From UHGV virus genome UHGV-0033085: DNA of 64,000 nt; one strand, given 5' to 3'. The position numbers and the translations under genes are program-made. Source of the stretch: a virus. The notes beneath the pieces are model-generated. The model was not told the origin of the DNA, searched no databases, and saw nothing but the letters and a program-made list of their open reading frames with translations. Of the stretch, positions 20,570 to 29,303 are shown piece by piece (positions within the stretch are counted from its first letter, which is position 1; the number at the start of each line of letters is the position of its first letter).

Positions 20570-20586
20570 TCAAGGATTTTTTGGAC

Positions 20587-23500
20587 ATGGAACAGTTCAA
20601 GAAGAAAAAATTACCGCTTCTTATTGCCGGTGCTGGTGGCAAGAAAAGTAAAAGCTCCAGCCGTACCCCGGTTGAAGCTGATGATACTGTCAATTCTCGT
20701 GCTATGGCAGCCATCCTCGACCTTCTTGGCGAGGGGGTTATCGGTGGCCTGGTAAATGGCGCAAAGTCGATCTTCATCGACGATTTACCGATCTTGAATG
20801 AAGATGGCTCTTCCAACTTCAGCGGTATTACATGGGATTTTCGTGACGGCTCACAAGACCAGACGCCAATGGCTGGTTTTGATTTTGTTGAAACGCCTAA
20901 GTCCGTAAATATTCAGCTTAAAAAAACACACGACGTTACGGTTTCAATCGATAACGATGAATCTGATCGCGTTCGTGTCATCATGAAATTCCCCTCTTTA
21001 CGTAGCGTTGATAAAAGCTCTGGCGATACAAATGGCACTACGGTGAAGTACAAATTCCAGATCGCCAACGGAGACGCAACATTTTCTGATGTGGTTGCAG
21101 AAGGTGAGAAAAGCGTTGATATCACGCTAACGGCAAAGAAAACAGGCGTGTATTACCGTAGCTATGAGCTGAAACTACCTAAGCCTGGTCGTGCATACAA
21201 GGTTAGGGTGATTCGCCTTACAGATGATAACAGTAGCCAGTACCTCTACAACGACACATGGGTTGATTCCATCGGTGAGATTGTCGACACGCCAATGAAC
21301 TACCCTAACTCTGCTCTTGTTGGCTTGAAGGTCAATTCAGAGCAGTTTGGTAGCACAATGCCTTCCCGTTCGTATTTGGTGCGCGGTATCAAAATCCGAG
21401 TACCGTCAAACTACAACGAATACACCAATACTTATGTCGGCGTATGGGACGGTACTTTTAAGCTGTTGTCTTCTTCAAACCCTGCGTGGATTCTCTACGA
21501 TTTGCTTACCAATACTCGGTATGGTCTTGGGCAATTTGTGTCGGAATCCATGATTGACCTCGGCCAGCTCTACCAGATTGGTCGATATTGTGACGAAGAG
21601 GTCGATGATGGCTTTGGGGGTAAAGAGAAACGCTTTGCAATCAATACGCAGATCACCAGTCGACAAGACGCATACCGATTAATTCAGGATATTGCCGGTG
21701 CATTCCGCGGCATGGTGTTTTGGGCTGGTGGCATGGTTAACATCATGCAGGATAGCCCATCAGATCCGGTAATGATGTTTACCAACTCCAACGTCAAAGA
21801 TGGACTGTTTACCTATAAAGGTTCTGCGCGTAAAGATCGCCCATCCGTTGCGCTCGTAACCTACAACAACAAGGAGGACGGTTATAAGCAAAATATCGAG
21901 TACGTTGAAGATCAGGACGCAATGCGCCGTTATGGTGAGCGTAAAACAGAAGTCGTAGCATTTGGATGTACAAGCCGAGGCCAGGCTCACCGAGTTGGTT
22001 TGTGGCTTTTGTATACCGCCAGAATGGAGTCGGATGTAATTACATTTACTGCCGGCTTAGACGCCTCATTTCTGATGCCCGGTGAAACCGTTCTGATTCA
22101 GAACAAATATCGTGCAGGTAAACGTAACTCCGGTCGAATTGTGGAGTTTACCAAAAACAGCATCACTCTCGATGCGCCTGTGTCGTTAGCTAAAAGCGGC
22201 AGCTTTATTCGGATATTGAATCAGGAAGGCAAAATCGTTGAACGCGATGTTCTTGAAACTGGCGAAAACATAACAAAGGTTACGTTTTCAAAAGCCCTGT
22301 CGTCAGCGGAAACGCCTGTTTTGAACGGTGTCTGGACAATTACAGAACCAGATCTCGAACCTATGCGCGTTCGCATCGTTAACATCGCGCAGGGGGAAAC
22401 GCCGGGTAGCTTTGACATCACCGCTGTTGAGAACAATCCGTCTAAATATGAGGCAATCGACAATGGTGCAACGCTGATCCCGCAGAATACGACGGTATTG
22501 GACCCAACTTACTCCAAGCCATCTAATCTGCAAATCACTGAAGGGACTTATCTCTCAAGCCCGGGCAACCTGTCAGTAAAACTGACTGCAACATGGGAAG
22601 GAAAATCTCCAGAGTATTGGATCAGTTGGCGACGTTCTGATGAAAACAATGTATCGAACTGGCAATCGGCGCGTGTAACCGAAGAGCAATACGAAATCGT
22701 TAATGTCGCGGAGAATGGACGCTACGACTTCCAGCTGTATGCGGTTTCATTCAACGGTAAAAAAACAGAGATTATCAGTACCGTTTATCAGGTGTTGGGC
22801 ACAATGACACCGCCGGATGCCCCAACGTCATTAACGGCCGTTGGAGACTATCGTAATGTGATACTGAATTGGGTTAATCCAGATTCGGTAGACCTTGATC
22901 ACATTAATGTTTACGCATCCCAGACCAACAATCTGGATACGGCGAAACTGATCGCAGAGTCTGCAAGCACCACCTTTACACATGCTGGTCTTGGGGATAG
23001 CGAAACGTGGTATTACTGGGTTCGAGCATCGAACAAGCGAGGTATGTTAAGCCCTCCGAACTCAAACTTGGGTACAGAGGCGACAACTCGCGATGTACTG
23101 TCGTTCCTGGCTGGCAAAATTACATCTTCCGAGCTTGGTCAGGCTCTGCTTGAGGACATCAACAGTAAAGCCTCTCAAGAAGCAGTTGACGAGTTAAATG
23201 AGCATATCAACCAGAGCGTCGAATCTTTGGAGGGGTCGGTAAACGACGTTAAGGAAGATATAGCTGAATTAGATAAGCAGTTCAGCGATAACCTCGCGAA
23301 TTTTGAAATAAAATTCAACGAGCGTAGCGATGCTTTGGAGAACGCACAAACCGAGCTTAAAGGTGAGGTTTCGGCAACGATCGACAAGGTCAATGAAGCG
23401 TTTGAAAAAATTGATGCTACTGATGCTGCAATTGTTGAAATCGAAAACACCGTATCTGAACACGATAAAGCTCTCGCTAATACAGTCGAGGCAATAAAGG

Positions 23501-25311
23501 CTGCAAGAGATGAAGCGGCGGCTCTTATTGCTAAGGAAAGCGAGGCTCGTGTAGAAGGTGATGCCGCAAACGCTAAACAACTGGAAGTGTTGCAGTCGAC
23601 GGTAGAGGAAAGTTCCGCAGCTGTTGAAGAAATGAAAAAGACGGTTGCAGAGGTCGATCGTGCCAGTGCAGAACTGACTACGAACATTGAGGCGTTAGCC
23701 AAAACAAATATTGACCTGGCTCTTCGTCAAGATGAAGACCAGCACAAGCAGATGGTCAATAACGCGAAGATCGCAACAACACAGAAAACCTTTGCTGATG
23801 ATATGTCTGCAATGGCCACGAAGGTTGAGGAAATTCGCGTAGAAATTGGCGAAGACATTAAGGCCAGTATTCTGGAAGAGTCCACCGCTCGTGCCGATGG
23901 CGATGAAGCGTTGGCAAAGCGTGTCACTCAGCTGCAATCTAAGTTTGAAGGAGATATCAGCGCGGCGATTAGTACAGAACAGGAGGCTCGTACATCTGCC
24001 GATGAAGCTTTGACGAAACAAATAACTCAGCTTGAGTCGAAAGTAAGCAACGATATTGTCGCAGCCATTAAGGAAGAGCAAGAAGCCCGAGCAACGGAAG
24101 ATTCGGCTCTGGCAAGCCAGATCACCCAACTTCAGGCAAAAGTTGATGATGATATTTCTGCTGCAATACGCAGTGAGCAGGAGGCGCGTGCGAGCGGAGA
24201 CTCTGCGTTAGCTAAACAAATAAACCAGCTTCAAGCAAAAGTTGACGGTGATATATCCGCCGCCATCACTCAGGAGCAGGAGGCCAGAGCAAGTGCTGAC
24301 GAGGCGCTCTCACGAGAAATTAACAGCCTGCGAGCACAGACCGGAACTGATATTGCCGCAGCGGTTGCTGTAGAGACAAAGGCAAGGACTGATGCCGATA
24401 GTGCATTGTCCACTCAGATTACGTCTCTTACAGCAAAAGCTAATGATCTCGAGGCATCTCTTGCCAGAGAAACAACGGCTCGTGCTGATGGTGATACCGC
24501 TTTAACAAAAGAGGTTTCAAGTTTAAAAGCACAGACTGCGAAAGATATTAGTGCGGCCGTTGCAGTTGAAACGCAGGCTCGAACTGATGCTGACTCGGCG
24601 TTATCATCTCAGATCACCAAACTGACCTCTCAATACAAAGAGGATATTAAAGCGGCTGTAGCAACCGAAACGAAAACGCGTACAGAGCAAGATGCGGCAC
24701 TGGCGACTCAAATCACAAACTTAGAGTCTCAAACAGCAGCCAACATTTCTGCGGCGGTCACAACTGAAACGACAGCGAGAACGCAGGCAGATAATGCTCT
24801 AAGTGGGCGAATCGACACTCTGAAAGCAGAGGTGGATGGAAATACCGCGACAATTCAACAGCAGGCAACAGCTATTGCTGATACCAACAAAAAAGTGTCA
24901 ACCGCGTGGACGTTGAAAATGGAGACTTCAACGAGCGGAGGGCAGAAGTATGTTGCTGGTATTGCGCTTGGTATCGACACCACTGGCCTTTCTCAGTTTT
25001 TGGTGCAGGCTGACAGGTTTGGTTTGGTCAACTCTGTTAACGGGAAGATCACCACGCCATTTGTTATCGAAAACAGTATCGCCTATATGAATGGTGCGTA
25101 TATCAAGGATGGCACAATCACCAATGCAAAAGTAGGCGATCTGCAATCTACCAATTTTGTTAGCGGTAGATCTGGATGGCGGTTCGGCAAAAATGGAACG
25201 CTTGAGATCAACGGTAATAGCGGGGGTAATGGGCGACTGGTCATAAATGGTCAGCGGATTGACGTTTATGACGATAACAACGTCCTACGAGTAAGAATTG
25301 GCCTTCTGTAA
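20587..25311 (+). CDS. central tail fibre / host specificity protein (lambda gpJ-like)
   Basis: about 1575 aa; conserved tip-attachment order; internal tandem repeats. Confidence 0.8.
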   Translation: MEQFKKKKLPLLIAGAGGKKSKSSSRTPVEADDTVNSRAMAAILDLLGEGVIGGLVNGAKSIFIDDLPILNEDGSSNFSGITWDFRDGSQDQTPMAGFDFVETPKSVNIQLKKTHDVTVSIDNDESDRVRVIMKFPSLRSVDKSSGDTNGTTVKYKFQIANGDATFSDVVAEGEKSVDITLTAKKTGVYYRSYELKLPKPGRAYKVRVIRLTDDNSSQYLYNDTWVDSIGEIVDTPMNYPNSALVGLKVNSEQFGSTMPSRSYLVRGIKIRVPSNYNEYTNTYVGVWDGTFKLLSSSNPAWILYDLLTNTRYGLGQFVSESMIDLGQLYQIGRYCDEEVDDGFGGKEKRFAINTQITSRQDAYRLIQDIAGAFRGMVFWAGGMVNIMQDSPSDPVMMFTNSNVKDGLFTYKGSARKDRPSVALVTYNNKEDGYKQNIEYVEDQDAMRRYGERKTEVVAFGCTSRGQAHRVGLWLLYTARMESDVITFTAGLDASFLMPGETVLIQNKYRAGKRNSGRIVEFTKNSITLDAPVSLAKSGSFIRILNQEGKIVERDVLETGENITKVTFSKALSSAETPVLNGVWTITEPDLEPMRVRIVNIAQGETPGSFDITAVENNPSKYEAIDNGATLIPQNTTVLDPTYSKPSNLQITEGTYLSSPGNLSVKLTATWEGKSPEYWISWRRSDENNVSNWQSARVTEEQYEIVNVAENGRYDFQLYAVSFNGKKTEIISTVYQVLGTMTPPDAPTSLTAVGDYRNVILNWVNPDSVDLDHINVYASQTNNLDTAKLIAESASTTFTHAGLGDSETWYYWVRASNKRGMLSPPNSNLGTEATTRDVLSFLAGKITSSELGQALLEDINSKASQEAVDELNEHINQSVESLEGSVNDVKEDIAELDKQFSDNLANFEIKFNERSDALENAQTELKGEVSATIDKVNEAFEKIDATDAAIVEIENTVSEHDKALANTVEAIKAARDEAAALIAKESEARVEGDAANAKQLEVLQSTVEESSAAVEEMKKTVAEVDRASAELTTNIEALAKTNIDLALRQDEDQHKQMVNNAKIATTQKTFADDMSAMATKVEEIRVEIGEDIKASILEESTARADGDEALAKRVTQLQSKFEGDISAAISTEQEARTSADEALTKQITQLESKVSNDIVAAIKEEQEARATEDSALASQITQLQAKVDDDISAAIRSEQEARASGDSALAKQINQLQAKVDGDISAAITQEQEARASADEALSREINSLRAQTGTDIAAAVAVETKARTDADSALSTQITSLTAKANDLEASLARETTARADGDTALTKEVSSLKAQTAKDISAAVAVETQARTDADSALSSQITKLTSQYKEDIKAAVATETKTRTEQDAALATQITNLESQTAANISAAVTTETTARTQADNALSGRIDTLKAEVDGNTATIQQQATAIADTNKKVSTAWTLKMETSTSGGQKYVAGIALGIDTTGLSQFLVQADRFGLVNSVNGKITTPFVIENSIAYMNGAYIKDGTITNAKVGDLQSTNFVSGRSGWRFGKNGTLEINGNSGGNGRLVINGQRIDVYDDNNVLRVRIGLL
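23860..24860 (+). repeat. degenerate tandem coding repeats (about 78 bp / 26 aa) inside J-like gene
   Basis: About 12 consecutive units of pattern D.AL..QIT.L..K...DI.AA...EQEAR. Confidence 0.6.
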
Positions 25312-25403: not shown

Positions 25404-28400
25404 ATGTGGTACAGGGAAGGTACTATCACATTTACACAGGGCAGCAATACTCTGGTTGGGGCAGGGACAGCCTGGAACGTAACAGCTAATGGTGTGTTGC
25501 CGGGGATGATCGTCATTGGCCCCGACAACAAGCTGTATGAGATCAAGCGCGTAACCAGTGATACGAACATTGTTCTCTCAGAACCTTATACCGGCGAAAC
25601 TCAGTCTGAAGTTCCGTGCCGAATCATTACGACCTATGAAGGCGACTTAACACAGTTTAGCGCGCGCTTTACTGCACTAATGTCGCGTATGTCGGCTGAT
25701 TCAAAGTCCATGCGCAGTTGGTTGACTGCTCTGGATGAGGTGACAATCGAGCGTGAAGACGGTACAGAAGTGACCGTTAAGCCGCTAATGCAGATCGTCA
25801 ACGAGCACAACGAAAACGTTGAGTGGTATAAAAATAACACTGACGCGATTAATGCTGCTGGCGACAAAGCTCGTGAGGCGGCGGCCAGTGCTGCCGCAGC
25901 AGCCGAAAGCGCCAATACCGCTGGAGAAAAAGCCTCTCAAGCGTCTCAAAGTGCATCCGCTGCGGCATCTTCACAAAGTGCTGCAAGTGCGAGTGCAACT
26001 GCTGCGAAAAAATCTGAAACGAACGCAGAATCAGCACATCTAGCGGCAGCAGAATCAGCGTCTGTAGCGTCGACCAAAGCATCGGAGGCAGCAACATCTG
26101 CGTCCAGTGCCTCTGCATCTAAGGATGCAGCCAAAGCATCAGAGACTAACGCTTCATCGAGTGCAAACGCGGCTGCATCATTTGCAACAGAAGCTGAAAA
26201 TTCGTCTAAGGCAGCAAAAGCGTCAGAGACAAACGCAAAAGCATCTGAAACGGCAGCCGGGCAGAGTGCATCGTCTGCAAACAGTTCGAAATCTGCGGCA
26301 GAAGCGTCAGCAAGCGCAGCCTCAGCAAGTGCGGATAGTGCTTCATCAAGTGCAACTGCGGCAGGAAAATCTGCGGATAGTGCATCGTCATCAGCGACAA
26401 TAGCTACCACAAAAGCGACAGAGGCGACAAGTCAGGCTACAGCTGCTAAAAATTCAGCATCGGCAGCAAAAACCTCTGAAACAAATGCAAAGGTCTCAGA
26501 AGACAATGCGGCTTCCTCTAAGGCGGCAGCTGCTGAATCTGCAAGTTCTGCGTCTGCATCAGCCACCTCAGCATCCGCTTCAAAAGATGAGGCGACCAAG
26601 CAGGCATCAGCAGCGAAGGGTAGTGCTTCAACGGCATCCACGAAAGCAACAGAGGCGGCAGGTAGTGCGACGGCTGCATCTCAGAGCAAAGCTGCTGCTG
26701 AATCCGCTGCGACCCGTGCAGAAGCTGCCGCTGATCGTGCTGAAGAGATCGCCGGTGCAGTTGCGATGGAAGACGCAAGCCTTACCACCAAAGGTGTTGT
26801 GAAACTTAGCAGTGCTGTCGATAGCACCAGTGAATCGCTGGCCGCAACGCCAAAGGCAGTTAAAGCAGTCAATGACAATGCGAACAGCAGGGTGCCATCT
26901 AACCGAAAAATTAACGGGAAAGCACTGACTGCGGATATCACATTAACGCCGAAAGATATTGGTACTTTAAATTCAATAACGATGTCTTTCTCTGGCGGGG
27001 CCGGGTGGTTCAAACTGGCTACTGTTACAATGCCACAAGCGAGTTCCATCGTTTACATCGCATTGATTGGTGGCGCTGGTTACAACGTCGGCTCCCCACA
27101 TCAGGCAGGCATTTCAGAACTGGTTCTACGAGCAGGCAATGGAAACCCCAAAGGGATTACAGGTGCTTTGTGGAAGCGTACAGCTGTCGGATTAACGAAT
27201 TTCGCCTGGATCAACACATCCGGCGATACATATGATATTTACGTTGAAATTGGCAATTATGCGACGAGTGTAAATATCCATTGGGATTGTACTGCAGATG
27301 CGTCAGTTTCTATTTATACATCGCCAACATATTCAGCGAGTAAGCCTTCCAGCGTTACCGATGGTGTTGTTTATACGATGTATAGCACACATCAGAAACC
27401 TACACCATCAGATATTGGAGCACTGCCAACAACCGGAGGAACAGTTTCAGGTCCGTTGTCTGTTACAGGTGGATTAACTGGTTCATTGAATGGTAATGCA
27501 AGTACAGCCACGAAATTGCAGACGGCAAGATCTATCGGTGGAGTTGTTTTCGACGGTTCTGCAAATATTAACCTTCCAGGTGTAAACACTACGGGTAATC
27601 AGAACACTACTGGTAATGCTGCAACTGCTACAAAACTTCAGACTGCAAGAAAAATATCCGGTGTTCCATTTGATGGTTCTACTGATATCACTTTAACCGC
27701 TGCGCATGTTGCCGCTTTCGCAAGAAGGGCAACAGGGTCATATGCGGATGCTGATGGTGGCGTTCCCTGGAATGCCGAATCAGGCGCTTACAATGTCACC
27801 AGCTCTGGCGAAAGCTATATTCTGGTTAACTTCTATACCGGAGTCGGAAGTTGCCGCACCCTGCAGATGAAGGCACATTACAGAAATAGAGGTCTGTTCT
27901 ACCGTTCTTCAAGAGACGGTTATGGTTTTGAAAGTGGTTGGGAGCAGGTTTACACGACTGGATTTATGCCTCAGCCGGCTGATATAAACGCACCAACCGC
28001 TGCCGCTGGATGGTTAAATAGTGGTAACGGAACGGCATTTACGACTGCTCAATTTATAACTTGGCTAAATAATCAGGGGGCATTTACAAACAAACATTGG
28101 ATCGCACGGTGCTCATGGACTTACGCCAACAATAATTATATAGACGACACTGGTTGCGGTAGGATCGATCTATCTGGTTCCGTGATTGAGGTGTTTAGTA
28201 ATAAGGCAACAAGCCACTACACTATTCGTGTTACAACGACAACAACATCAGGTCATGGTGGTGTTAATAATGCGGAATTTATTTATGTGTACAATGGGAG
28301 TGATTATGCGCCAGGCTGGCGTCGTTCTTATAACACTAGAAACAAACCAACAGCTTCTGATGTAGGAGCATTACCGCTTTCAGGTGGCACATTATCTGGA

Positions 28401-29303
28401 GGGTTGACGTCTTCTGGTGAGATCGTTTCAAAATATGCAAATGGTTTCCGCATTGCTTACGGTAACTATGGGTTCTTTATCCGTAATGACGGCGGAAGCA
28501 CATATTTCATGCTAACAGCATCAGGAGACACATTAGGTTCATGGAACGGTTTGCGACCTATTACAATTAATAATACCAGCGGTGCTGTATCAATTGGTAA
28601 TGGACTAAATGTTACTGGTGGCGTAAATGGTAGTTTGAACGGTAATGCTTCAACAGCCACAAAATTGCAGACAGCAAGGAAAATTGCTGGTGTGGCGTTT
28701 GATGGCTCTGCCGATATTACTTTGACTGCGGCTAACCTTAATGCTTATACGAAAACAGAGGTAACAAACCTTCTAAGTTCCTATGCAAGCAGATCATCAC
28801 TGACAGGCTATAGTGGCAACCTGGATATTATTGCTGAAACACTGGTTGTCAAATCAGGCGGTAGTGGAGGGTTTGCTATATGGGATATTGGCACAACTAC
28901 TAGCGGTGCCAATATGTACATTGATCCAAACCCAGGTATCAATACAGTTTGGCGTTCAACATCTTCAAGGCGCTATAAAAAGGAAATTGAAACATTACAA
29001 GATCGATATGCTGATGAACTTTTGTCATTAAGACCTGTTTGGTATCGTTCAATTTGTCGAGGTGACCGAAAGGATTGGGGGTATTACGGCCTTATTGCTG
29101 AAGAGGTTGGTGAGATTGCCCCGCAATATGTCCATTGGCGTGAACCAACAAATAATGATTCTCCAGAAGATATTTCCTCAAATGGTATGGTCGCTGAAGG
29201 GGTGATGTATGAGCGTTTGGTTGTACCACTCATTCATCATATTCAGCAATTGACCAAAAGGGTTGAGGAGCTTGAAACGAAGTTAAATTCACCTAAAGAA
29301 TAA
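25404..29303 (+). CDS. long tail fibre protein with C-terminal intramolecular chaperone (S74-like) domain
   Basis: Ala/Ser-rich low-complexity shaft; three copies of NGNASTATKLQTAR-type motif; C-terminal YGLIAEEV...P auto-chaperone-like block. Confidence 0.75.
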   Translation: MWYREGTITFTQGSNTLVGAGTAWNVTANGVLPGMIVIGPDNKLYEIKRVTSDTNIVLSEPYTGETQSEVPCRIITTYEGDLTQFSARFTALMSRMSADSKSMRSWLTALDEVTIEREDGTEVTVKPLMQIVNEHNENVEWYKNNTDAINAAGDKAREAAASAAAAAESANTAGEKASQASQSASAAASSQSAASASATAAKKSETNAESAHLAAAESASVASTKASEAATSASSASASKDAAKASETNASSSANAAASFATEAENSSKAAKASETNAKASETAAGQSASSANSSKSAAEASASAASASADSASSSATAAGKSADSASSSATIATTKATEATSQATAAKNSASAAKTSETNAKVSEDNAASSKAAAAESASSASASATSASASKDEATKQASAAKGSASTASTKATEAAGSATAASQSKAAAESAATRAEAAADRAEEIAGAVAMEDASLTTKGVVKLSSAVDSTSESLAATPKAVKAVNDNANSRVPSNRKINGKALTADITLTPKDIGTLNSITMSFSGGAGWFKLATVTMPQASSIVYIALIGGAGYNVGSPHQAGISELVLRAGNGNPKGITGALWKRTAVGLTNFAWINTSGDTYDIYVEIGNYATSVNIHWDCTADASVSIYTSPTYSASKPSSVTDGVVYTMYSTHQKPTPSDIGALPTTGGTVSGPLSVTGGLTGSLNGNASTATKLQTARSIGGVVFDGSANINLPGVNTTGNQNTTGNAATATKLQTARKISGVPFDGSTDITLTAAHVAAFARRATGSYADADGGVPWNAESGAYNVTSSGESYILVNFYTGVGSCRTLQMKAHYRNRGLFYRSSRDGYGFESGWEQVYTTGFMPQPADINAPTAAAGWLNSGNGTAFTTAQFITWLNNQGAFTNKHWIARCSWTYANNNYIDDTGCGRIDLSGSVIEVFSNKATSHYTIRVTTTTTSGHGGVNNAEFIYVYNGSDYAPGWRRSYNTRNKPTASDVGALPLSGGTLSGGLTSSGEIVSKYANGFRIAYGNYGFFIRNDGGSTYFMLTASGDTLGSWNGLRPITINNTSGAVSIGNGLNVTGGVNGSLNGNASTATKLQTARKIAGVAFDGSADITLTAANLNAYTKTEVTNLLSSYASRSSLTGYSGNLDIIAETLVVKSGGSGGFAIWDIGTTTSGANMYIDPNPGINTVWRSTSSRRYKKEIETLQDRYADELLSLRPVWYRSICRGDRKDWGYYGLIAEEVGEIAPQYVHWREPTNNDSPEDISSNGMVAEGVMYERLVVPLIHHIQQLTKRVEELETKLNSPKE

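What the first reader, a model, noticed from the sequence alone, without database searches (positions are those of the whole stretch)
23860..24860. About twelve tandem 26-residue repeats inside the J-like central tail fibre
Within the J-like protein a degenerate 78-bp unit encoding D.AL..QIT.L..K...DI.AA...EQEAR is repeated head-to-tail about 12 times, also producing long antisense ORF artefacts. Such an array is not typical of lambda J and probably forms an extended helical stalk before the C-terminal receptor-binding region. Repeat number could vary by recombination and tune fibre length or host range.
Basis: seen in the sequence. Interest (0 to 1): 0.45.

Follow-up and report, generated by a model that had tools for sequence, protein, structure and literature searches.

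The report
33-residue repeat shaft in J-like fibre
The central tail-fibre protein of this SSU5-like phage-plasmid contains ten tandem 33-residue repeats (not twelve of 26) that should form a long three-stranded helical shaft; they carry the sequence signature of a region that, in a related pyocin, refolds into a beta-prism to open the tail tip.

Summary
The repeat is real, but the period was miscounted. It is 33 aa / 99 bp, with 10 clean units (aa 1107-1435, nt 23899-24885) plus one degenerate unit (nt 23806-23898). It lies in a 1576-aa J-like central fibre protein of an SSU5-like phage-plasmid (94% nt identity to Escherichia phages CMS-2020a and Cyrano).

The units share only 30-68% nt identity, with no shared exact run over 11 nt, so selection acts on the protein. 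This is not a slippage-prone DNA array. Copy number still differs among relatives by whole units: 10, 9 (PhiR41_1) and 5 (SSU5). One database J-like protein has 21-23.

AlphaFold2 predicts a continuous helix. Hydrophobic periodicity is 3.65, which equals 33/9 and is hendecad-like. The region aligns with the F2-pyocin central fibre, whose shaft is a solved trimeric coiled coil.

Every unit carries the published F7-pyocin fold-switch motif SxSxxMxxLxS once forward and once reversed, with a Glu-Arg i+4 pair.

Best reading: an expanded alpha-helical shaft between the FN3 domains and a lambda-CSF-like tip domain, probably metastable and able to convert to a beta-prism. Switching itself is untested here. 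No lambda-type receptor-binding domain follows.

Verdict: a new member of a known kind, of moderate interest.

The parts
20581..25311 (+). J-like central tail fibre / tip attachment gene, 1576 aa from the TTG start. The true start is probably the ATG at 20587, as annotated in phage Cyrano.
   Evidence: ORF list. Pfam FNIII-A_GpJ aa 103-237, Phage-tail_3 aa 359-522, fn3 aa 746-825, Phage_Tail_Tip aa 1424-1558. 94% nt identity to the J genes of Escherichia phages CMS-2020a and Cyrano.
23107..23805 (+). Irregular helical (heptad-type) segment, aa 843-1075, following the last FN3 domain. It contains weak relics of the 33-aa unit and a conserved non-repeat stretch at aa 1028-1075.
   Evidence: Hydrophobic period 3.55. 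Weak unit-HMM hits at aa 962-990 and 993-1017. 7-aa and 25-aa indels relative to PhiR41_1 and SSU5. No structure prediction covered aa 843-1073.
23806..23898 (+). Degenerate unit 0 of the 33-residue repeat, aa 1076-1106.
   Evidence: Unit HMM i-Evalue 3.6e-6. Both motif halves are present.
23899..24786 (+). Units 1-9 of the 33-residue (99-bp) repeat, aa 1107-1402. Consensus: xDxALxxQITxLxAKxxxDISAAxxxETxARTx. Unit 6 (aa 1272-1303) is 32 aa. There are two subfamilies: units 1-4 (EQEAR type) and units 5-9 (Thr-rich ETxAR type).
   Evidence: Invariant columns D2, A4, L5, L12, A22, E27, R31. AF2 predicts helix with pLDDT about 70-87.
24787..24885 (+). Unit 10, aa 1403-1435: a transition unit whose second half merges into the beta tip domain and is a candidate 'seed' for the beta-prism.
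   Evidence: Unit HMM 8.5e-14. In AF2 with the MSA this stretch is beta from aa 1412. In single-sequence AF2 it is helical up to aa 1441.
24850..25308 (+). C-terminal tip domain (Phage_Tail_Tip / DUF1983). It is homologous to the central straight fibre beta-prism of lambda gpJ. No lambda-type receptor-binding domain follows it.
   Evidence: Pfam 1.2e-41. PDB sequence hits to T1 gp33, the F2-pyocin fibre and lambda J 839-971. Foldseek hits to 8xcj/8xci and 7z4b.
23695..24129 (-). Antisense ORF of 144 aa overlapping units 0-2. Most likely a by-product of the biased codon usage of the repeat, not a gene.
   Evidence: No other minus-strand stop-free run above 75 aa in the rest of the array.
25404..29303 (+). 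Downstream side tail fibre gene (1299 aa). It is context for the finding, not part of the repeat.
   Evidence: Pfam Gp34_trimer and Peptidase_S74. The syntenic genes are annotated as tail fibre in Cyrano, PhiR41_1 and SSU5.

Best explanation
The array is the greatly expanded alpha-helical shaft of a lambda-J-like trimeric central tail fibre. It lies between the FN3 domains that close the tail tip and a C-terminal beta-prism tip domain.

Each 33-residue unit equals three hendecads (nine helical turns, about 4.9 nm). Ten to eleven units would therefore give a nearly straight three-stranded coiled coil of about 50 nm. With the upstream helical segment, the total would be about 84 nm.

The units also encode a second structure. 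Each contains one forward and one reversed copy of the SxSxxMxxLxS strand motif, making a beta-hairpin, with a buried Glu-Arg (i, i+4) pair. This is the signature of the F7-pyocin central fibre segment that switches from coiled coil to triangular beta-prism on cell contact, opening the tip and ejecting the tape measure protein.

I therefore propose that the shaft is metastable. After the distal end engages the cell surface, it would zip from the C-terminal beta 'seed' into a beta-prism. If so, this segment would shorten from about 50 nm to about 10 nm and release the FN3 plug.

What is shown: the repeat, its period, helix prediction, homology to the pyocin fibre, the motif fit, and whole-unit copy-number differences. 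What is inferred: trimeric coiled-coil geometry, the switch itself, the lengths, and the direction of zipping.

My confidence that it is a helical shaft is about 0.85. My confidence that it also fold-switches is about 0.5.
For: - Periodicity: lag 33 gives 47% identity, against a shuffle maximum of 17%.
- Hydrophobic periodicity is 3.65 (= 33/9) in the array and 3.55 upstream.
- AF2 with a 92-sequence MSA and AF2 with a single sequence both give a continuous helix over the array.
- phmmer aligns J 1276-1548 with F2-pyocin fibre residues 927-1193 (E = 3e-25), and aligns the array with T1 gp33.
- The F2-pyocin shaft is a solved three-stranded coiled coil (PMC13455828). The F7-pyocin 163-residue coiled coil converts to a beta-prism, and Gln substitutions at the S positions abolish killing (PMC12874032).
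- The forward motif sits at columns 4-14 in all 11 units, and the reversed motif at columns 22-32 in units 0-9 (10 of 11). Observed counts are 16 + 11 matches, against about 3 + 3 in shuffles; none of 2000 shuffles reached the observed total.
- On a 33/9 helical wheel the L and M columns fall on the hydrophobic stripe and the S columns fall off it.
- In 97 units less than 50% identical to any window unit, the six S columns are 99.8% small residues, against 57% for other non-core columns. E27 and R31 are invariant.
- Lambda J itself converts part of its short shaft (841-861) into beta strands on LamB binding (PMC11101478).
- Indels among relatives are exact multiples of the unit: 33 aa and 164 aa.
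- Thr content rises and helix-minus-strand propensity falls towards the beta tip.
Against: - No beta-prism state was predicted here.
- No solved structure covers this exact repeat. The repeat-bearing part of T1 gp33 is unresolved (PMC11945409), and the unit profile hits only that chain in the PDB.
- The strand spacing here (about 16.5 residues per motif) is tighter than the 163-residue switch region of F7 would suggest, so the geometry may differ.
- The conservation statistic is biased, because the units were collected with a profile that already contains the S positions.
- The fold-switch work is a 2026 preprint on a pyocin, not a phage. Its authors note that lambda and T5 do not show such an extensive switch.
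Confidence: 0.55

Rival explanations
1. The array is a static spacer. It forms a stable trimeric coiled coil that only sets the reach of the central fibre and perhaps docks side fibres. It never refolds.
For: AF2 predicts helix in both runs. Hydrophobic period is 3.65. In F-type pyocins the shaft is the docking site for the side fibres (PMC13455828). The array is acidic, with net charge -11 in units 1-4 and -7 in units 5-9, like the pyocin docking surface. Copy number varies among relatives as expected for a length module.
Against: A plain spacer does not explain why six positions off the hydrophobic stripe are about 100% Ala/Ser/Thr/Gly/Val across distant homologues. It does not explain why the motif alternates in orientation in every unit. 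It also does not explain why units next to the beta tip hold 5-8 Thr each.
Confidence: 0.3
2. The array is constitutively a beta-prism or beta-meander fibre, an extension of the lambda-like central straight fibre, and is never helical in the virion.
For: The hairpin motif appears in every unit. Units 5-9 are rich in Thr, Val and Ile. AF3 predicted a beta-prism for 30% of homologous phage fibres in PMC12874032.
Against: Helix is predicted with pLDDT 70-87. The 3.65 periodicity of large hydrophobics fits a helix, not strands. The pre-ejection pyocin structures are coiled coils (PMC12874032, PMC13455828).
Confidence: 0.1
3. The array is a recombination-prone DNA repeat whose copy number changes frequently and acts as a host-range switch.
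For: Copy number differs among relatives, at 10, 9, 5 and 21-23 units, always in register.
Against: Units are 30-68% identical in nucleotides. The longest shared exact run is 11 nt, and third-position identity at lag 99 is 0.34. TRF finds nothing. Cyrano and CMS-2020a, at about 94% nt identity to the window, have the same 10 units. The tip domain is nearly identical across E. coli and Salmonella phages, while the side fibre gene differs.
Confidence: 0.04

Closest known systems
Central fibre protein of F-type pyocins (F7 CFP; F2 PyoF10, PDB 25vf)
   Same: Same domain order: J-like hub, FN3, alpha-helical shaft, then beta-prism tip without a lambda-type receptor-binding domain. Significant sequence alignment over the last units plus the tip (E = 3e-25). 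Same SxSxxMxxLxS motif with alternating orientation and a Glu-Arg i+4 pair (PMC12874032).
   Different: The pyocin switch region is 163 residues and is not described as a regular repeat. Here the array is 359 residues of strictly periodic 33-residue units, preceded by about 230 further helical residues. Switching and side-fibre docking are shown for the pyocins only. This element is a phage-plasmid virion, not a tailocin.
Phage T1 central fibre protein gp33 (PDB 9l9p)
   Same: Best PDB sequence match (E = 4e-30). It contains 33-residue units of the same family and the same C-terminal tip, ending ...LRVxIG.
   Different: T1 has only about 3 units, of a variant form with a 7-residue insertion. 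Its residues 821-1172 were not resolved, so it gives no structural template (PMC11945409).
Lambda gpJ (PDB 8iyk, 8xci, 8xcj)
   Same: Hub domains, FN3 domains and the central straight fibre domain are homologous. Lambda also has a short helical shaft (about aa 809-861) that flips and partly becomes beta on receptor binding (PMC11101478).
   Different: Lambda has no repeat array, and it has an extra C-terminal LamB-binding domain that is absent here. The NCBIfam lambda_TipJ score is 523, against a cutoff of 1950.
J proteins of other SSU5-like phage-plasmids (Cyrano, CMS-2020a, PhiR41_1, SSU5)
   Same: Same gene, synteny and unit family. Cyrano and CMS-2020a have the same 10 units.
   Different: PhiR41_1 has 9 units and SSU5 has 5. 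Klebsiella members replace the whole distal part with a giant, unrelated module.

Membership tests
Lambda-J-like central tail fibre / tip attachment protein | N-terminal hub domains (FNIII-A_GpJ, Phage-tail_3) followed by FN3 domains | tested here: met
   Pfam E = 5e-29, 7.5e-34 and 2.6e-5. PHROG 31 'central tail fiber J'.
Lambda-J-like central tail fibre / tip attachment protein | Central straight fibre / Phage_Tail_Tip (DUF1983) domain | tested here: met
   PF09327 E = 1.2e-41 at aa 1424-1558. Foldseek hits to lambda gpJ 8xcj and 8xci.
Lambda-J-like central tail fibre / tip attachment protein | Position in the tail operon after the tape measure, M, L, K and I genes | tested here: met
   Syntenic Cyrano, PhiR41_1 and SSU5 regions are annotated TMP-M-L-K-I-J-fibre. 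The window ORF order matches.
Lambda-J-like central tail fibre / tip attachment protein | Lambda-type C-terminal Ig-like receptor-binding domain (equivalog level) | tested here: not met
   The protein ends 18 aa after PF09327. The lambda alignment stops at lambda residue 971. NCBIfam lambda_TipJ scores 523 bits, below the 1950 cutoff.
Fold-switching coiled-coil / beta-prism segment of F-pyocin-type central fibres (PMC12874032) | Sequence homology to the C-terminal ~400 residues of a pyocin central fibre protein | tested here: met
   F2-pyocin fibre 25vf_A, E = 3.1e-25, aligned over J 1276-1548. The F7 sequence itself was not available.
Fold-switching coiled-coil / beta-prism segment of F-pyocin-type central fibres (PMC12874032) | Strong helical / coiled-coil propensity of the segment | tested here: met
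   AF2 predicts helix over J 1075-1408. Hydrophobic period is 3.65. No dedicated coiled-coil predictor or trimer model was run.
Fold-switching coiled-coil / beta-prism segment of F-pyocin-type central fibres (PMC12874032) | SxSxxMxxLxS strand motif in alternating orientation, with acidic M positions paired with Arg at i+/-4 | tested here: met
   The forward motif is at columns 4-14 in all 11 units. The reversed motif is at columns 22-32 in units 0-9, with E27-R31 in units 0-9 (invariant in units 1-9). S columns are 99.8% small residues in distant homologues (with ascertainment bias).
Fold-switching coiled-coil / beta-prism segment of F-pyocin-type central fibres (PMC12874032) | Non-switching beta-prism strands immediately C-terminal, acting as the seed | tested here: met
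   AF2 with the MSA gives strands from J 1412 onward. The tip is similar to the lambda central straight fibre.
Fold-switching coiled-coil / beta-prism segment of F-pyocin-type central fibres (PMC12874032) | An alternative beta-prism conformation predicted for the trimer (AF3 / CF-random) | tested here: inconclusive
   Only monomer AF2 was available. It gave helix with both deep and single-sequence input. The only difference was at unit 10, which was beta with the MSA and helical without it.
Fold-switching coiled-coil / beta-prism segment of F-pyocin-type central fibres (PMC12874032) | Experimentally observed switch coupled to tip opening | not testable with these tools
   Requires cryo-EM or cryo-ET and mutagenesis.
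Recombination-prone tandem DNA repeat (contingency-type array) | High nucleotide identity and long identical runs between units | tested here: not met
   Units are 30-68% identical in nucleotides, with a longest shared run of 11 nt. TRF is negative.
Canonical heptad (left-handed) coiled coil | Hydrophobic periodicity of 3.5 residues | tested here: not met
   The array peaks at 3.65 (33/9, hendecad-like). Only the upstream segment, aa 843-1106, peaks at 3.55.

The most novel reading that the evidence does not exclude
Each 33-residue unit may be a quantal alpha-to-beta module: nine helical turns in one state and one beta-hairpin rung pair in the other. Copy number would then set the stroke and stored energy of a fold-switching central fibre. 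SSU5-like phage-plasmids and their relatives would provide a natural allelic series of 5, 9, 10 and 21-23 units. Such a series could tune how far the tail tip is pulled towards the outer membrane, for example through O-antigen or capsule. SSU5 is known (my recollection of its description, not checked here) as specific for rough strains, and it has the shortest array.
Probability: 0.25. Interest if true: 0.7.

Novelty: new member of a known kind. Interest (0 to 1): 0.4.

Why it matters
How non-contractile tails obtain the energy to breach the envelope is an open question. [quoted passage not shown]

This protein shows the switch motif as a clean, modular 33-residue repeat. Relatives differ by whole units, at 5, 9, 10 and about 22. 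That gives a ready-made series for testing whether fibre length, stroke or stored energy scale with unit number.

The repeat occurs in J-like and other fibre proteins of about 1,500 sequenced phages. No Pfam or NCBIfam model covers it, so a repeat model would improve annotation.

For this locus taken alone, the result is ordinary: it is an orthologue of already deposited J proteins.

Tried and rejected
- Tandem Repeats Finder on 22-27 kb found nothing at period 99 or 78. The repeat is visible only at the protein level or by DNA autocorrelation.
- The 26-aa / 78-bp period is rejected: lag-26 identity is 16%, which is background.
- Pfam, NCBIfam and PHROGs scans of the repeat region gave no curated repeat family. 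They returned only sub-threshold coiled-coil-like Pfam hits and generic PHROG tail-fibre families.
- A PDB search with the 33-residue unit profile hit only T1 gp33, whose repeat part is unresolved (PMC11945409). No structural template exists.
- A Foldseek search of the AF2 model matched only the tip domain. The long helix gave no informative hits.
- Monomer AF2 with deep versus single-sequence input, used as a stand-in for the CF-random test, did not yield a beta-prism. This is inconclusive, because the prism is a trimer.
- A literature search for the PDB codes 9ZE4, 23GD, 9WCA and 25VF returned only irrelevant papers. The supplements of PMC12874032 are not held, so I could not check whether SSU5-like phages were among its 24 fibres.
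- Frequent recombination as the source of variation is rejected on nucleotide divergence.
- I looked for electron-microscopy evidence of a long fibre in Cyrano. The paper reports only tail length, 259 nm against 230 nm expected, and does not describe the tip.
Full report
**What the window is.** The finding lies in ORF 20581..25311 (+), which is 1576 aa from a TTG start. The real start is probably the ATG at 20587. The gene is 94-94.5% identical in nucleotides to the J genes of Escherichia phages CMS-2020a and Cyrano. Only its first 56% matches PhiR41_1 and Klebsiella relatives at megablast sensitivity; the Klebsiella records continue into a distal part unlike the window's. All of these are ~103-120-kb SSU5-like phage-plasmids. 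Pfam finds FNIII-A_GpJ (aa 103-237), Phage-tail_3 (359-522), fn3 (746-825) and Phage_Tail_Tip/DUF1983 (1424-1558). Synteny is tape measure, M, L, K, I, J, then side fibre. The identification as a J-like central fibre is therefore sound.

**Checking the observation.** Lag 33 gives 47% identity and lag 26 gives 16%. In 2000 shuffles the mean was 11% and the maximum 17%. Laid out in rows of 33, the register holds from aa 1107 to 1435, with one 32-residue unit at 1272-1303.

A unit HMM finds 10 full units (i-Evalues 1e-13 to 5e-20) and one degenerate unit at 1076-1106 (4e-6). It also finds two relics in the upstream helical segment. The consensus is xDxALxxQITxLxAKxxxDISAAxxxETxARTx, with D2, A4, L5, L12, A22, E27 and R31 invariant.

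Tandem Repeats Finder misses the array. The antisense ORFs exist, but only one overlaps the array.

**Nature of the repeat at the DNA level.** Units are 30-68% identical in nucleotides, and the longest exact run shared by any two units is 11 nt. At lag 99, codon positions 1, 2 and 3 are 69%, 76% and 34% identical. The repeat is therefore old and maintained by selection on the protein. It is not a substrate for frequent slippage or homologous recombination.

**Comparison among relatives.** Cyrano and CMS-2020a have the same 10+1 units. PhiR41_1 has 9+1 and SSU5 has 5+1. In a global alignment, PhiR41_1 lacks exactly 33 residues and SSU5 lacks exactly 164 residues, which equals five units including the 32-residue one. 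Both gaps are in register. The last ~170 residues are nearly identical in all three.

The variable gene between these phages is the downstream side fibre. Klebsiella members replace everything distal to aa ~870 with a giant, different module.

A unit-profile search of 1.84 billion representative proteins found 286 clusters at E <= 1e-3. Copy numbers reached ~30 per protein. Among 26 proteins with both a J-like hub region and the tip domain, unit counts ranged from 0 to 21 and were typically 4-7. The window's 10 is at the high end. P0121 (2138 aa, same Pfam architecture) has 21-23 units. tblastn finds the array-plus-tip module in 1,519 of 50,697 phage records, and 91 of them cover at least 80% of it. 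No Pfam or NCBIfam model covers the repeat.

**Structure.** AF2 with a 92-sequence alignment predicts a helix over J 1075-1408, with pLDDT mostly 70-87. There is a short break at ~1254-1257 (QTGTD), and strands begin at 1412. Single-sequence AF2 predicts helix up to 1441, with a break at the 32-residue unit. These are monomer models, so they say nothing direct about oligomeric state.

Large hydrophobic residues recur with period 3.65 (= 33/9, three hendecads) in the array. In the upstream segment 843-1106 the period is 3.55. The model's tip domain matches lambda gpJ's central straight fibre (8xcj, 8xci) and the phage SU10 tip fibre.

By sequence, the best PDB matches are T1 gp33 (9l9p, E = 4e-30, with the same kind of 33-residue units) and the F2-pyocin fibre (25vf, E = 3e-25, aligned to J 1276-1548). 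Lambda J aligns only through its 839-971 segment. The T1 repeat part is unresolved (PMC11945409). The F2-pyocin shaft is a solved three-stranded coiled coil to which side fibres attach at a Gly kink (PMC13455828).

**Link to the fold switch.** He et al. (PMC12874032, preprint) show that a 163-residue coiled coil of the F7-pyocin central fibre converts into a triangular beta-prism on cell contact. The conversion opens the tip and ejects the tape measure protein, and Gln substitutions at small corner residues abolish killing without affecting assembly. They define a strand motif, SxSxxMxxLxS, that alternates in orientation. S positions are small, buried in the prism corners and exposed in the coil. 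[quoted passage not shown] M positions are buried only in the coil and are often Glu/Asp paired with Arg at i+/-4. The authors do not mention repeats or SSU5.

In the window, all 11 units carry the forward motif at columns 4-14 (for example ALAKRVTQLQS), and units 0-9 carry the reversed motif at columns 22-32 (for example AAISTEQEART) with E27-R31; in unit 10 this half has degenerated. Observed counts are 16 + 11 matches, against about 3 + 3 in composition-matched shuffles. None of 2000 shuffles reached the total, although the units are homologous and so not independent.

On a 33/9 helical wheel the L and M columns (9, 12, 24, 27), together with columns 5, 16, 20, 23 and 31, form the stripe at 98-196 degrees. 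The S columns lie at 0-65 and 229-295 degrees.

In 97 units from other proteins that are less than 50% identical to any window unit, the six S columns are 99.8% A/S/T/G/V with mean entropy 1.2 bits. The other non-core columns are 57% small residues with entropy 2.7 bits. E27 and R31 are invariant. This set was collected with a profile that contains those positions, so some bias is built in. Strict smallness at positions that face solvent in a coiled coil is what a second, beta-prism constraint predicts. A plain spacer does not predict it.

Thr content rises from 1-3 per unit (units 1-4) to 5-8 (units 5-10). Helix-minus-strand propensity falls from about 0.22 to 0.07 towards the beta tip. This is consistent with zipping from a C-terminal seed, but that is inference only.

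**Mechanistic reading.**
- Shown: a modular 33-residue repeat that is predicted helical, is homologous to the pyocin shaft, and carries the fold-switch motif in every unit.
- Inferred: a trimeric, nearly straight coiled coil of about 53 nm for 359 residues, and about 84 nm with the upstream helix.
- Inferred: conversion to about 22 strands per chain, a prism of about 10 nm, after distal engagement. This would pull the tip towards the membrane and release the FN3 plug, as in F7 pyocin and, on a small scale, in lambda (841-861; PMC11101478).
- Unknown: what binds the receptor. There is no lambda-type receptor-binding domain, and the tip is conserved across hosts.

**Rivals.**
- A static spacer or docking shaft (0.3) fits the helix predictions but not the S-column conservation.
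- A constitutive beta-prism (0.1) conflicts with the helix prediction and the 3.65 periodicity.
- A recombination-driven host-range switch (0.04) conflicts with the nucleotide divergence.

**Verdict.** The feature is a large, unusually regular member of the known alpha-helical-shaft / fold-switch class of J-like central fibres. Orthologues are already deposited under generic annotations. The interest lies in the clean modularity and the natural copy-number series, not in a new kind of system.

Noticed in passing
window 20581-20589: The mechanical ORF start is TTG at 20581. Relatives are annotated from the ATG two codons downstream (20587, MEQFKKKK). All aa numbers in this report count from the TTG start.
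   Followed up: partly
window 25404-29303: The side tail fibre gene (1299 aa) has a long Ala/Ser-rich low-complexity stretch at about 25.8-26.8 kb, which spawns several antisense and off-frame ORFs. It also has a T4 gp34-type trimerisation domain and a C-terminal S74 intramolecular chaperone. This gene, not the J tip, differs most between Cyrano, PhiR41_1 and SSU5.
   Followed up: partly
L004 5980-14613 and L005 5380-13413 (Klebsiella phages vB_KpnS_p4727 and 1825-KPC53): The J homologues share the first ~870 aa with the window. They then run on as an ORF of more than 2800 aa that reaches the end of the fetched locus. This ORF has repeated ~200-aa globular inserts separated by Ser/Thr-rich helical segments, a completely different distal fibre.
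   Followed up: no
P0121 (2138 aa): A J-like protein with the same Pfam architecture, but with 21-23 copies of the 33-residue unit and about 140 extra residues after the tip domain. It is the longest J-type array seen here.
   Followed up: partly
window 23662-23805 (aa 1028-1075): A non-repeat stretch (TTNIEALAKTNIDLALRQDEDQHKQMVNNAKIATTQK...) between the heptad-type segment and the array. It is almost identical in the window, PhiR41_1 and SSU5, although its flanks diverge. It could be a kink or docking site like the one that holds side fibres on the F2-pyocin shaft, but this was not tested.
   Followed up: no
window 23107-23400 (aa 843-940): Indels of 7 aa (one heptad) in PhiR41_1 and 25 aa in SSU5, relative to the window, in the upstream helical segment.
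   Followed up: no
window 24330-24345 (aa ~1250-1258) and 24475-24492 (aa ~1299-1304): The two AF2 runs break the helix at different places. With the MSA the break is at the Gly-containing QTGTD. Without the MSA it is at the end of the 32-residue unit, a one-residue register skip. Either could be a real hinge.
   Followed up: no
Literature: PMC9928086 (phage Cyrano): The Cyrano tail was measured at 259 +/- 12 nm, against 230 nm expected from its 1525-aa tape measure protein. The ~30 nm excess may include the tip and fibre, but the paper does not describe the tip.
   Followed up: no
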